Of a stretch of 64,000 bases of DNA, positions 13,740 to 14,813 are shown piece after piece. This stretch comes from Escherichia coli (lineage in GTDB: Bacteria; Pseudomonadota; Gammaproteobacteria; Enterobacterales; Enterobacteriaceae). The stretch is from assembly GCF_003334405.1 (NCBI RefSeq), contig NZ_QOWM01000004.1. One strand, written 5' to 3'. A model generated the notes under the pieces. It did not search any database. It saw nothing but the letters and a program-made list of their open reading frames with translations, and was not told the origin of the DNA. The first letter of the stretch is position 1, and every line of letters begins with the position of its first letter. The position numbers and the translations under genes are program-made.

Positions 13740-14813
13740 TTAGTGACCAATCATTGGCGCTTGTGGAATTAAGCGTCGGTACAATTCCTCCGGCACCGGG
13801 CTTTGCCATACTCCCGCATACATTGCGTAACCAATCACCGCAAACATAATCCCCAGAACCAGTAGCGTCATTAACCAGCCAGACAACGCAAAGGCTTTTT
13901 TATTTGCCGCAGGTTTTTGCAGTGAAAAGGTCAATGTTGAGGCTACCGGACATGACTCTACGCAAGTCATACAGCCGGTACATTCCACTGTTCGTACCTG
14001 AATTAATTTATCGACCGGGATCCGTGATGGGCAATTTTTTGCGCATTTGCCACAGTCGATACAACTTTCGGCATTGCGACGAATCTTAAACGGCGACAAT
14101 AGCGAAACCACGCCCATCAGCGCGCCATATGGGCAAAGATAACGACACCAGGCATGGCGAATAAACAGGCTGGCAATCAGCAAAACGGTCACGCTGATTA
14201 ATGTCGCGGTCCCCATATGACGAAAGAAATCGAGCATTTTAACGTCCATCACCACGCTGTAGGGCGACAACATAAAATAGTGAATCGCCTGAGCGGGCAT
14301 CAATAACGCGATATAGATAAAAAAACTCAACAGCAAATACTTCACGCCGCGCAGAGGAATATCCAGCCAGCGGGGAAGGACACATTGCCGACCAAACAGT
14401 TTGTTACCGAGATCGCCGATTAATTCAGAAAGCGTACCAACCGGGCATAACCATGAGCAAAAGGCCTTTTTGAGTAATAGACTGATGACGATAAAAGCGA
14501 CCAATAACAGCATCGCGGCGGCGTGGACGGACGGTAACTGACCTGTTACAAGGCTATATTTCAGATTCATCAGCCCGGCAATCGGTAGCCAGCCTTCGAT
14601 ACCTCCCGGTCTGGCGACAAATGTCGTGCTACTTGCCGTTTCGTAATAGCGCACCCAATACCAGAACGTGATGGCAATATAAATATTCATTGCCAACAGT
14701 AATAATTGCGTCGCTTTACGCCAGGTCGTGGCATTACGCCAGTCATTCCACGGTAATTTGCCACCCGTCGTGCCTGGCCGCCGCTGCCAGCGGGTTCTTT
14801 TATTCTCTGCCAT
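13740..14813 (-). CDS. yccM: Membrane-bound polyferredoxin-like 4Fe-4S protein (NapH/MauN-like)
   Basis: Track ORF of 357 aa; two CxxCxxCxxxCP ferredoxin motifs (CIDCGKCAKNCP, CTGCMTCVESCP) plus transmembrane segments. Confidence 0.92.
   Translation of the reverse strand: MAENKRTRWQRRPGTTGGKLPWNDWRNATTWRKATQLLLLAMNIYIAITFWYWVRYYETASSTTFVARPGGIEGWLPIAGLMNLKYSLVTGQLPSVHAAAMLLLVAFIVISLLLKKAFCSWLCPVGTLSELIGDLGNKLFGRQCVLPRWLDIPLRGVKYLLLSFFIYIALLMPAQAIHYFMLSPYSVVMDVKMLDFFRHMGTATLISVTVLLIASLFIRHAWCRYLCPYGALMGVVSLLSPFKIRRNAESCIDCGKCAKNCPSRIPVDKLIQVRTVECTGCMTCVESCPVASTLTFSLQKPAANKKAFALSGWLMTLLVLGIMFAVIGYAMYAGVWQSPVPEELYRRLIPQAPMIGH

What the first reader, a model, noticed from the sequence alone, without database searches (positions are those of the whole stretch)
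13740..14813. yccM: a NapH-like membrane polyferredoxin with no obvious redox partner nearby
Seen directly: two CxxCxxCxxxCP motifs plus membrane segments, encoded convergently with gnsA and adjacent to, but divergent in function from, torS. NapH/MauN-type proteins normally work with a partner oxidoreductase that is not evident here, so its electron-transfer role is open.
Basis: inference. Interest (0 to 1): 0.2.

Follow-up and report, generated by a model that had tools for sequence, protein, structure and literature searches.

The report
NO-regulated orphan membrane polyferredoxin YccM
This is the known but uncharacterised E. coli gene yccM, a five-helix membrane iron-sulfur protein with no partner gene beside it. 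Its conserved promoter, and the neighbours of its relatives in other phyla, point to a role in nitric-oxide and nitrite stress rather than in the adjacent TMAO system.

Summary
Window 13740-14813 (-) is E. coli yccM, 357 aa. It has two CxxCxxCxxxCP motifs, two further CxxxCP motifs and five membrane helices. It is convergent with gnsA and lies 71 bp downstream of torS on the same strand.

It belongs to the NapH/NosR/CcoG superfamily but falls below the curated cut-offs of all three families. It lacks their defining extras: napG, an FMN domain, an Ig domain.

The torS adjacency is incidental. Orthologues in about 13 enterobacterial genera are monocistronic in unrelated neighbourhoods.

What is conserved is a promoter. 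It has an FNR-type site at about -41.5, a TAnnAT -10 hexamer and an abutting NsrR operator. That operator is the best NsrR match in the 64-kb window and in nearly every orthologous locus. Published ChIP shows NsrR binding there.

In other phyla, homologues sit in operons with nrfHA or beside nirK, RIC/YtfE, qNor, an NnrS-like gene and Crp/Fnr regulators.

Best reading (about 0.55): an anaerobically expressed, NO-derepressed membrane electron-transfer module whose partner is encoded elsewhere. The partner and the direction of electron flow are unresolved.

The gene and its NsrR binding are already known, so interest is modest.

The parts
13740..14813 (-). yccM coding sequence (357 aa plus stop)
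   Evidence: ORF list. RefSeq annotation of identical DNA in 5417 E. coli genomes. Pfam 2x Fer4_5 plus dicluster Fer4. dN/dS 0.06-0.12.
14640..14732 (-). TM helix 1 (residues 28-58), preceded by a basic cytoplasmic N-terminus (7 K+R in 27 aa)
   Evidence: AF2 secondary structure; charge counts and coordinates.
14472..14522 (-). TM helix 2 (residues 98-114). His97, conserved in 62 of 68 sequences, sits at its periplasmic end.
14442..14459 (-). First CxxxCP motif (C119, C123, P124) at the cytoplasmic end of TM2
   Evidence: Regex on the translation; both cysteines invariant in 68 of 68 sequences.
14301..14372 (-). TM helix 3 (residues 148-171)
14163..14210 (-). TM helix 4 (residues 202-217)
14130..14147 (-). 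Second CxxxCP motif (C223, C227, P228) at the cytoplasmic end of TM4
   Evidence: invariant in 68 of 68.
14028..14063 (-). First CxxCxxCxxxCP [4Fe-4S] motif (C251-P262)
13947..13982 (-). Second CxxCxxCxxxCP [4Fe-4S] motif (C278-P289)
13818..13880 (-). TM helix 5 (residues 312-332). It lies beyond the stretch of YccM that matches the NapH (match ends at residue 299) and NosR (ends at 284) profiles, so it is probably absent from both; neither profile leaves room for a further helix.
   Evidence: AF2. The NapH profile match ends at residue 299 (model position 279 of 286) and the NosR match at residue 284 (model position 661 of 680).
13743..13817 (-). Predicted periplasmic C-terminal tail (residues 333-357), with Trp336 conserved in 65 of 68 and the terminal His357 in 52 of 68 sequences
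   Evidence: The periplasmic location is inferred from topology, not measured.
14831..14853 (-). NsrR operator (11-1-11 inverted repeat; TAGTGGCATTTGGTATACAACTT on the yccM strand), ending 17 nt before the ATG
   Evidence: Best NsrR-PWM score in the whole 64-kb window (18.7 bits). Rank 1 in orthologous loci of 10 or more genera. ChIP-seq and ChIP-chip binding reported in PMC5320621.
14853..14858 (-). Putative -10 hexamer (TAGAAT on the yccM strand), abutting the NsrR operator
   Evidence: TAnnAT is invariant in the 10-genome promoter alignment A3. Inferred; no transcription start site data were used.
14880..14893 (-). FNR-type site (GCGAT-TTGA-ATCAA on the yccM strand; 8 of 10 matches to TTGAT-N4-ATCAA). 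It overlaps the torS stop codon and is centred about 41.5 bp upstream of the inferred start site.
   Evidence: The site lies 44.5-45.5 bp upstream of the NsrR-site centre in Escherichia, Citrobacter, Intestinirhabdus and Providencia by scan, and the AATCAA block is also invariant in Enterobacillus in alignment A3, while the spacer is not conserved. Inferred from sequence only.
13698..13725 (.). 13-nt inverted repeat in the 48-bp gap between the convergent genes gnsA and yccM; a possible shared transcript end
   Evidence: The terminator scan did not flag it because it has no T-run.

Best explanation
SHOWN. yccM encodes a stand-alone inner-membrane polyferredoxin of the NapH/NosR/CcoG superfamily. 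It has five membrane helices, a CxxxCP motif at the cytoplasmic end of helix 2 and another at the end of helix 4, and a cytoplasmic ferredoxin domain with two [4Fe-4S] motifs. A fifth helix should place a short conserved tail, ending in His, in the periplasm. No partner is encoded beside it in Enterobacterales.

SHOWN OR REPORTED. NsrR, the NO-sensing repressor, binds its promoter. The operator is conserved wherever the gene occurs in Enterobacterales.

INFERRED. The gene is transcribed from its own promoter in the torS-yccM spacer. That promoter combines an FNR-type activator site at about -41.5 with an NsrR operator covering -10 to about +16. By my recollection this is the same logic as the hcp-hcr operon. 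The gene would therefore be made when cells are anaerobic and NO appears, for example during nitrate or nitrite respiration.

INFERRED. The protein acts as the membrane electron-transfer module of the nitrite/NO stress response. It would connect the quinone pool or the periplasmic face, through the CxxxCP site, to the two cytoplasmic clusters, exchanging electrons with a partner encoded elsewhere. Candidates, in my order of preference, are the di-iron repair protein YtfE/RIC, whose physiological reductant is (to my knowledge) not known, then Hcp, then the Nrf nitrite/NO reductase. The direction of electron flow and the identity of the partner are not resolved.
For: Architecture. All 12 cysteines are invariant in 68 sequences.

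Own promoter and NsrR. The site at 14831-14853 is the best NsrR match of the 64-kb window, at 18.7 bits against a shuffle maximum of mean 12.7 and sd 2.6. The best NsrR match of each ~13-kb locus lies within 160 bp upstream of yccM in Escherichia, Enterobacillus, Citrobacter (two different chromosomal contexts), Providencia, Intestinirhabdus, Pectobacterium, Samsonia, Pragia, Budvicia and Limnobaculum. The PWM was built without the yccM site. In vivo NsrR binding is reported in CFT073 (ChIP-seq summit at -36) and in K-12 (PMC5320621).

FNR-type site and invariant -10 at fixed spacing, with an unconserved spacer between them.

Independence from tor.

Gene neighbourhood outside Proteobacteria. 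yccM overlaps the start of nrfH-nrfA in two lineages whose YccM proteins are 65% identical (L088, L099; NrfA 622 bits against a cut-off of 595, NrfH 159 against 134). In L098 a nirK (351 against 296)-FGE-SCO1-RIC (240 against 205) cluster lies on the divergent side. In 12 of 25 Acidobacteria loci there is a Crp/Fnr regulator, a hemerythrin-like protein, RIC, an NnrS-like protein and/or qNor within 6 kb. ytfE lies directly downstream in Providencia sp. UBA10704. A divergent Crp/Fnr regulator is present in the P0139 lineage.
Against: In the CFT073 study yccM is not among the NsrR targets that changed 1.5-fold or more under NO-generating conditions, and its ChIP enrichment is modest at 2.24-fold.

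The FNR site and the start site are inferred from sequence only.

The gene is patchy in Enterobacterales. No Salmonella, Klebsiella or Enterobacter appears among the 80 best of 329 relatives. From my own knowledge those genera carry ytfE and hcp. If so, YccM cannot be an obligatory partner of either.

Published knockout phenotypes are aerobic stresses, namely heat, blue light and ROS, not NO.

Some lineages show no N-oxide genes nearby: Gemmatimonadota (aconitase and atp operon) and Burkholderiales MAGs (parB and atp).

No direct evidence exists for any partner, for quinol oxidation, or for the number or type of cofactors.
Confidence: 0.55

Rival explanations
1. YccM is a CcoG-type cupric reductase. 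It would reduce Cu(II) to Cu(I) at the cytoplasmic membrane face using its two [4Fe-4S] clusters and the CxxxCP sites, serving copper tolerance or cuproenzyme supply in a species without cbb3 oxidase.
For: A review of copper homeostasis names YccM as a shorter CcoG homologue and describes CcoG as having two [4Fe-4S] clusters and two Cu sites (PMC7558416). The predicted topology is the same: five helices with the C-terminus outside. One homologue lies next to a nirK (copper enzyme)-SCO1/SenC cluster.
Against: The CcoG profile scores only 33.9 bits against a cut-off of 316.7, far below the NapH score of 93.5. There is no Ig-like C-terminal domain. No ccoGHIS or copper genes are nearby in any enterobacterial locus. 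The promoter carries NsrR and FNR-type sites. I did not search for a CueR or CusR site.
Confidence: 0.12
2. YccM is a general envelope, energy or oxidative-stress factor unrelated to nitrogen oxides, for example one that maintains membrane redox balance. The NsrR site would be a weak, physiologically minor input.
For: The Keio yccM mutant is heat-sensitive and is complemented by a plasmid (PMC5828445). It is hypersensitive to blue light and to four single stressors, grouping with atp, rfa and dnaJ mutants (PMC11673782). Homologues lie beside the ATP synthase operon in two unrelated lineages. The reported NO response is weak or absent.
Against: This does not explain why the NsrR operator and FNR-type site are conserved in about 10 genera while the surrounding sequence diverges. 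It also does not explain the nrfHA, nirK, RIC and qNor neighbourhoods in other phyla. Screen phenotypes of single Keio mutants are pleiotropic.
Confidence: 0.15
3. YccM is a NapH-style quinol dehydrogenase serving a periplasmic respiratory reductase, possibly the neighbouring Tor (TMAO) system, and is co-transcribed with torS.
For: It lies 71 bp downstream of torS on the same strand, with no intrinsic terminator predicted in the gap. NapH is the best-scoring curated family.
Against: The tor genes are next to yccM only in Escherichia. One Escherichia species and several Citrobacter have cbpA-cbpM directly upstream instead, and other genera have unrelated neighbours. A dedicated conserved promoter occupies the spacer. 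There is no napG-like periplasmic ferredoxin gene nearby. By my recollection the Tor system already has TorC as its quinol dehydrogenase.
Confidence: 0.04
4. YccM is part of the Tus sulfur relay for tRNA 2-thiouridine formation, as labelled in a thermotolerance screen.
For: PMC5828445 lists yccM under 'sulfur relay system, tRNA modification'.
Against: No Tus/DsrE-like or rhodanese domain is present; only Fer4-type families hit. No tus or mnmA genes lie near any orthologue. The paper offers the label without an assay. My inference is that it was inherited from a pathway map or confused with yccK (tusE).
Confidence: 0.02

Closest known systems
NapH (quinol dehydrogenase ferredoxin subunit of periplasmic nitrate reductase; NF007013 / TIGR02163)
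   Same: It is the best-scoring curated family. The alignment covers residues 30-299, spanning four membrane helices, two CxxxCP motifs after helices 2 and 4, and a cytoplasmic domain with two CxxCxxCxxxCP motifs. By my recollection of the E. coli literature, the nap operon also responds to FNR.
   Different: The score is 93.5 bits against a cut-off of 234. There is no napG partner and no nap operon. An extra fifth helix and a conserved periplasmic tail lie beyond the end of the NapH profile match. YccM has family-specific motifs: an N-terminal RRPGTxGGKxPW and a loop RPxGxEG(W/F)LPI.
NosR / NirI / PceC ('NapH-like' flavinylated transmembrane electron-transfer proteins)
   Same: The same membrane-plus-ferredoxin module (75 bits to NosR, residues 101-284). 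The proposed job is to move electrons across the membrane through Fe-S clusters to support a periplasmic N-oxide reductase (PMC8238504). Association with N-oxide reductase genes is seen here too.
   Different: There is no periplasmic FMN-binding domain and no adjacent FMN-binding or ApbE gene. The score is 75 against a cut-off of 1000. There is no nos cluster. YccM has a C-terminal fifth helix that the NosR profile match does not cover.
CcoG / FixG / RdxA (cupric reductase for cbb3 oxidase assembly)
   Same: Five-helix topology with a periplasmic C-terminus and two [4Fe-4S] motifs. YccM is explicitly named as a homologue (PMC7558416).
   Different: Sequence similarity is very weak (33.9 bits against 316.7). 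The Ig-like periplasmic domain is replaced by a 25-residue tail. There is no ccoGHIS context. According to the review, E. coli lacks a cbb3 oxidase.
hcp-hcr promoter (FNR-activated, NsrR-repressed) and the NsrR regulon
   Same: An NsrR 11-1-11 operator overlaps the core promoter, with an FNR-type site upstream. hcp, ytfE, hmp and nrfA are NsrR targets in the same ChIP data sets.
   Different: The architecture of the hcp promoter is recalled from memory, not tested here. FNR dependence of yccM is inferred only. The reported NO response of yccM is weak, whereas hcp and ytfE rise 44- to 70-fold.

Membership tests
NapH (NF007013; NapH/MauN TIGR02163) | Whole-protein score at or above the curated NCBIfam cut-off | tested here: not met
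   93.5 bits against 234 for NF007013, and 87.4 against 213.05 for TIGR02163.
NapH (NF007013; NapH/MauN TIGR02163) | Four membrane helices, two CxxxCP motifs and two CxxCxxCxxxCP motifs | tested here: met
   YccM has these plus a fifth helix.
NapH (NF007013; NapH/MauN TIGR02163) | Encoded with napG (or mauM) and a periplasmic oxidoreductase operon | tested here: not met
   No nap or mau genes appear in the window annotation or in 80 related loci.
NapH (NF007013; NapH/MauN TIGR02163) | Quinol dehydrogenase activity | not testable with these tools
   Requires biochemistry.
NosR / NirI | N-terminal periplasmic FMN-binding domain | tested here: not met
   No FMN_bind hit. Only about 30 residues precede helix 1.
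NosR / NirI | Score at or above the curated cut-off; nos/nir cluster context | tested here: not met
   75.2 bits against 1000. No nos genes nearby.
CcoG / FixG | Score at or above the curated cut-off | tested here: not met
   33.9 bits against 316.7.
CcoG / FixG | C-terminal periplasmic Ig-like domain; ccoGHIS context | tested here: not met
   No such Pfam hit; the tail is 25 aa. The review states that YccM lacks the domain. No cco genes nearby.
CcoG / FixG | Cu(II) reductase activity | not testable with these tools
   Requires purified protein.
YccM family (stand-alone 5-TM PF12801 x2 plus dicluster ferredoxin) | Full-length collinear similarity including helix 5 and the W...(G)H(P) tail | tested here: met
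   The window protein is the E. coli type member. 325 cluster representatives match at E<=1e-30. The tail is conserved. AFDB models have TM-score 0.85-0.98.
NsrR regulon | 11-1-11 NsrR operator in the promoter | tested here: met
   18.7 bits, the best in the window. Conserved at rank 1 in at least 10 genera.
NsrR regulon | NsrR occupancy in vivo | not testable with these tools
   Reported by others: ChIP-seq in CFT073 and ChIP-chip in K-12 (PMC5320621).
NsrR regulon | Derepression by NO or in an nsrR mutant | not tested
   Nothing was computed here. In the paper read, yccM is absent from the list of targets changing 1.5-fold or more in CFT073. No K-12 expression data could be read.
FNR regulon (class II promoter) | TTGAT-N4-ATCAA site centred near -41.5 | tested here: inconclusive
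   8 of 10 matches in E. coli and 9 of 10 in Providencia and E. albertii, at conserved spacing to the -10 and the NsrR site. The start site and FNR dependence are not measured. There are 38 sites scoring exactly 8 of 10 (plus two at 9 of 10) in the 64-kb window by chance.

The most novel reading that the evidence does not exclude
The YccM family may be a distinct, so far unrecognised class of membrane redox protein dedicated to nitrosative stress. One version is that it is the missing physiological reductant that recharges di-iron RIC/YtfE (or Hcp) from the quinone pool. The other is that it is a transmembrane conduit whose conserved periplasm-facing residues (His97, Trp336, C-terminal His357) hold an additional metal or haem site. 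Such a site could keep periplasmic nitrite/NO enzymes such as NrfA and NirK, or NO-damaged metal centres, reduced.
Probability: 0.18. Interest if true: 0.6.

Novelty: already known. Interest (0 to 1): 0.3.

Why it matters
yccM is one of the E. coli y-genes that still lacks a function. The whole NapH/NosR/CcoG membrane module has no solved structure, and its cofactors and direction of electron flow are unsettled.

If YccM is the membrane electron source or sink of the NsrR/FNR-controlled NO response, it would fill a gap in how enteric bacteria power Fe-S cluster repair and NO detoxification during anaerobic nitrate and nitrite respiration in the gut. It would also offer a minimal, partner-free model protein for the superfamily.

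The present work does not establish this. It makes the hypothesis specific and cheaply testable with reporter fusions in fnr and nsrR mutants and with anaerobic NO phenotypes.

Tried and rejected
(1) A functional link to the Tor system is rejected. Adjacency is confined to Escherichia, and the cbpM-yccM junction without tor exists in Escherichia sp. E1V33 and in Citrobacter.

(2) Looking for any conserved operon partner in Enterobacterales found none in about 13 genera.

(4) The 'sulfur relay / tRNA modification' label from PMC5828445 has no domain or context support.

(5) Supplementary data of the CFT073 paper were searched for yccM expression values, without result. A literature search for b0992 found nothing relevant. 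The CcoG primary paper (PMC6800367) is not held.

(6) The simple sigma-70 promoter scan found no promoter in the torS-yccM spacer. This is expected for an activator-dependent promoter with a poor -35. The promoter call rests on the phylogenetic footprint instead.

(7) No NsrR-type site is found upstream of the Acidobacteria homologues, where Crp/Fnr-family regulators are adjacent instead.

(8) I could not measure distances between His97, Trp336 and His357 or between the four CxxxCP cysteines, because model coordinates are not exposed. The idea of an extra metal site is therefore untested.

(9) Rfam found no RNA family at or next to yccM.
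Full report
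WHAT IS THERE

The window is an E. coli chromosome segment with the gene order gfc-cspH-cspG-ymcF-ymcE-gnsA-yccM-torS-torT-torR-torCAD-cbpMA. The reported interval 13740-14813 is a minus-strand, ATG-started ORF of 357 codons. Its DNA is found in 5417 of 5426 complete E. coli genomes, where it is annotated 'yccM: 4Fe-4S binding protein'.

It also has two CxxxCP motifs, at C119-P124 and C223-P228. Pfam reads this as two Fer4_5 (PF12801) units plus a dicluster ferredoxin domain.

gnsA (13518-13691, +) is convergent, separated from yccM by 48 bp that contain a 13-nt inverted repeat. torS (14885-17629) is upstream on the same strand, 71 bp away. The gene is under purifying selection, with dN/dS 0.06-0.12 against four other Escherichia lineages.

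ANATOMY

An AlphaFold2 model built on a 68-sequence family alignment is very confident, with pLDDT 94.3 and pTM 0.90. Its elements, in order, are:

- helix 1 (residues 28-58);
- short periplasm-side helices (70-90);
- helix 2 (98-114), followed at once by the first CxxxCP motif;
- a cytoplasmic helix (124-140);
- helix 3 (148-171);
- periplasm-side helices (174-198);
- helix 4 (202-217), followed by the second CxxxCP motif;
- the ferredoxin domain (243-297);
- helix 5 (312-332);
- a C-terminal helix (342-354).

K+R counts are 7, 4 and 13 in the predicted cytoplasmic segments against 2, 2 and 2 in the predicted periplasmic ones. This fits an N-in/C-out topology. The topology is inferred, not measured.

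All 12 motif cysteines and Pro77 are invariant in 68 sequences down to 29% identity. His97 (62 of 68), Trp336 (65 of 68) and the terminal His357 (52 of 68) are conserved on the predicted periplasmic face.

FAMILY PLACEMENT

Against NCBIfam the best models all fall far below their curated cut-offs:

| Model | Score (bits) | Cut-off (bits) |
|---|---|---|
| NapH | 93.5 | 234 |
| NapH/MauN | 87.4 | 213 |
| NosR | 75.2 | 1000 |
| CcoG | 33.9 | 316.7 |

The NapH profile match ends at residue 299. Helix 5 and the tail are therefore additions relative to NapH and NosR. CcoG shares the five-helix, C-out plan but carries an Ig-like domain where YccM has 25 residues.

YccM is thus the type of its own subfamily. 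There are 325 representatives at 50% clustering with E<=1e-30. High-TM-score AFDB models occur in Desulfitobacterium, Geotalea, Geothermobacter, Telmatospirillum and others, all unannotated.

IS THERE A PARTNER NEARBY?

In Enterobacterales there is not. A scan of one genome per species gave orthologues of 61-95% identity in these genera: Escherichia, Citrobacter, Enterobacillus, Providencia, Leminorella, Entomohabitans, Intestinirhabdus, Pectobacterium, Samsonia, Symbiopectobacterium, Pragia, Budvicia and Limnobaculum.

Clustering all flanking ORFs showed that torS is upstream only in Escherichia. Escherichia sp. E1V33 and several Citrobacter have cbpA-cbpM directly upstream. Other genera have rsmI, mgtE, an MFS transporter, a diguanylate cyclase and so on. 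Gaps of 50-600 bp lie on both sides.

The tor adjacency is therefore an accident of local gene order, and yccM behaves as a monocistronic gene. No Salmonella, Klebsiella or Enterobacter locus is among the best 80 of 329 relatives, so the gene is patchy.

WHAT IS CONSERVED: THE PROMOTER

A published ChIP-seq study reports an NsrR peak centred 36 bp upstream of yccM in strain CFT073. It states that the same target was found by ChIP-chip in K-12 (PMC5320621).

I built an NsrR weight matrix from 11 E. coli sites, excluding yccM. With it, the site at window 14831-14853 (TAGTGGCATTTGGTATACAACTT on the yccM strand) is the best match in all 64 kb. It scores 18.7 bits, against a mean shuffle maximum of 12.7 with sd 2.6.

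In each ~13-kb orthologous locus the single best match (rank 1 of about 13,000 positions) lies within 160 bp upstream of yccM. This holds in Escherichia, Enterobacillus, both Citrobacter contexts, Providencia, Intestinirhabdus, Pectobacterium, Samsonia, Pragia, Budvicia and Limnobaculum. It is absent in Entomohabitans and weak in Symbiopectobacterium.

Scanning the same regions for TTGAT-N4-ATCAA revealed a site centred 44.5-45.5 bp upstream of the NsrR-site centre in Escherichia, Citrobacter, Intestinirhabdus and Providencia, matching 8-9 of 10 positions. The scan did not reach that threshold in Enterobacillus, but the AATCAA block is invariant there too in the alignment.

A 10-genome alignment shows three conserved blocks separated by unconserved sequence:

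- GAT-n3-AATCAAT;
- an invariant TAnnAT;
- the abutting NsrR operator.

With TAGAAT (14853-14858) as the -10 hexamer, the upstream site (14880-14893, overlapping the torS stop codon) is centred about 41.5 bp from the expected start site. That is the geometry of a class II FNR promoter.

NsrR binding is reported. The operator's conservation is shown here. The FNR dependence, the -10 hexamer and the start site are inferred. The generic sigma-70 scan finds no promoter in the spacer, as expected for an activator-dependent promoter. No terminator is predicted between torS and yccM, so some read-through cannot be excluded.

NEIGHBOURS IN OTHER PHYLA

In Acidobacteria MAGs (about 51% identity), 12 of 25 loci carry at least one of the following within 6 kb of yccM; several of these loci are near-duplicates:

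- a Crp/Fnr-family regulator;
- a hemerythrin-like protein;
- RIC/YtfE (the cluster's Providencia member scores 355 bits against 254; an Acidobacteria member was not scored separately);
- an NnrS-like membrane protein (Pfam E-value 5e-9);
- a quinol NO reductase (NorB cytochrome-c-like domain plus COX1).

In a Bacteroidota/Ignavibacteria-type clade (45% identity to YccM), the gene overlaps the start of nrfH-nrfA in two lineages that are 65% identical to each other. NrfA scores 622 bits against a cut-off of 595, and NrfH 159 against 134. One of these loci also has an Rrf2-family regulator 3 kb away.

In an Ignavibacteriales contig, the divergent side carries nirK (351 against 296)-FGE-sulfatase-SCO1-RIC (240 against 205). 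Another lineage has a divergent Crp/Fnr regulator. Providencia sp. UBA10704 has ytfE immediately downstream.

Not every lineage fits. Gemmatimonadota have aconitase and the atp operon nearby, and Burkholderiales MAGs have parB and the atp operon.

HOW IT MOST LIKELY WORKS

Taken together, the regulatory footprint in Enterobacterales and the neighbourhoods in at least two other phyla (Acidobacteria and Bacteroidota/Ignavibacteria) point to nitrite and NO metabolism.

The most economical model is that YccM is produced when FNR is active and NsrR is inactivated by NO. It would then serve as a membrane-anchored electron-transfer module. The proposed path runs from the quinone pool or the periplasmic face, through the CxxxCP site at the inner membrane surface, to two cytoplasmic [4Fe-4S] clusters, and on to a partner encoded elsewhere. 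Flow in the opposite direction is equally possible.

RIC/YtfE recurs as a neighbour in three lineages, and to my knowledge its reductant is not known, so it is my first candidate. Hcp and Nrf are alternatives. I put about 0.55 on the general model and no more than about 0.2 on any single partner.

Four things count against the model:

- the weak ChIP enrichment, and the absence of yccM from the NO-responsive list in CFT073;
- the patchy distribution of the gene;
- the aerobic nature of the published knockout phenotypes, namely heat (complemented), blue light and ROS;
- the fact that thermodynamics and direction of flow are unknown.

RIVALS

A CcoG-like cupric reductase (0.12) is suggested by a review and by topology, but sequence support is weak and there is no copper context. 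A general stress or energy role (0.15) fits the screens but not the conserved operator. A Tor or respiratory quinol dehydrogenase role (0.04) and a tRNA sulfur-relay role (0.02) are not supported.

COMPARISON WITH WHAT IS KNOWN, AND NOVELTY

The gene, its name, its NapH/CcoG-like nature and NsrR binding are all in the literature or in annotation, so the finding itself is already known. Three results appear to be additions; they are computed here, and I found them in none of the 28 held papers that mention yccM:

- conservation of the NsrR operator across genera;
- the FNR-type class II architecture;
- the cross-phylum association with nrfHA, nirK, RIC and qNor.

I could not read the original K-12 NsrR ChIP-chip paper or the regulon databases, so prior description elsewhere is possible. 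Interest is modest (0.3). This is a well-defined y-gene with a now specific, cheaply testable hypothesis, and not a surprising new system.

Noticed in passing
L100/L101 7001-8122 and flanks; L051, L054, L056, L062: YccM homologues lie beside the F1Fo ATP synthase operon in two unrelated lineages. In Gemmatimonadota the gene is convergent with atpC and has aconitase upstream. In Burkholderiales MAGs it lies in the parB-atp region. The E. coli yccM knockout also groups with atp mutants in blue-light and ROS screens (PMC11673782). This may be coincidence.
   Followed up: no
window 13740-14813, opposite (+) strand: A 2026 study of TadA-dependent A-to-I RNA editing reports an edited antisense transcript, 'yccM-as' (PMC13170351). 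I did not locate it in the sequence.
   Followed up: no
window 63895-63917: This is the second-best NsrR-matrix match of the window (AAGATGCGTTTTAACCGTATTTT, 15.5 bits). By my reading of the gene order, not checked against an annotation, it lies in or near csgD at the right-hand end of the window. It is probably a chance match.
   Followed up: no
window 58474-58923: Two tandem RtT-family elements (58474-58610 and 58655-58791, each 46.3 bits against a gathering score of 45) lie immediately downstream of a minus-strand tRNA at 58839-58923.
   Followed up: no
window 12756-13178: An Rfam cspA-thermoregulator match (159 bits) covers the leader and the start of the cold-shock gene at 12912-13124 (cspG). 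The neighbouring small ORFs ymcF, ymcE and gnsA overlap one another in the annotated relative.
   Followed up: no
window 12000-12400, compared with L001 9885-10582: The K-12-derived strain ER1709 carries IS1D between gfcA and cspH. The window has no ORF of that kind in the corresponding gap, so it comes from a strain without that insertion.
   Followed up: partly
L098 5044-5886 and L099 4988-5830: In Bacteroidota/Ignavibacteria-type loci, a 280-aa soluble Fer4 plus AF_0155-domain protein is transcribed divergently from the yccM homologue. It is a candidate cytoplasmic redox partner in those lineages.
   Followed up: partly
window 13740-14813 (literature): yccM is listed as 5.7-fold up among 'SOS genes' after ciprofloxacin in EHEC (PMC11125564). 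It is near zero, together with rutG, in olaquindox-resistant mutants (PMC7696260). Both could be copy-number effects (a prophage induced nearby, or a deletion) rather than regulation. This is untested.
   Followed up: no
window 14822-14876: A 12-nt inverted repeat (14822-14833 and 14865-14876, 83% complementary, 31 nt apart) brackets the NsrR operator and the -10 hexamer in the torS-yccM spacer. Its significance is unknown.
   Followed up: no
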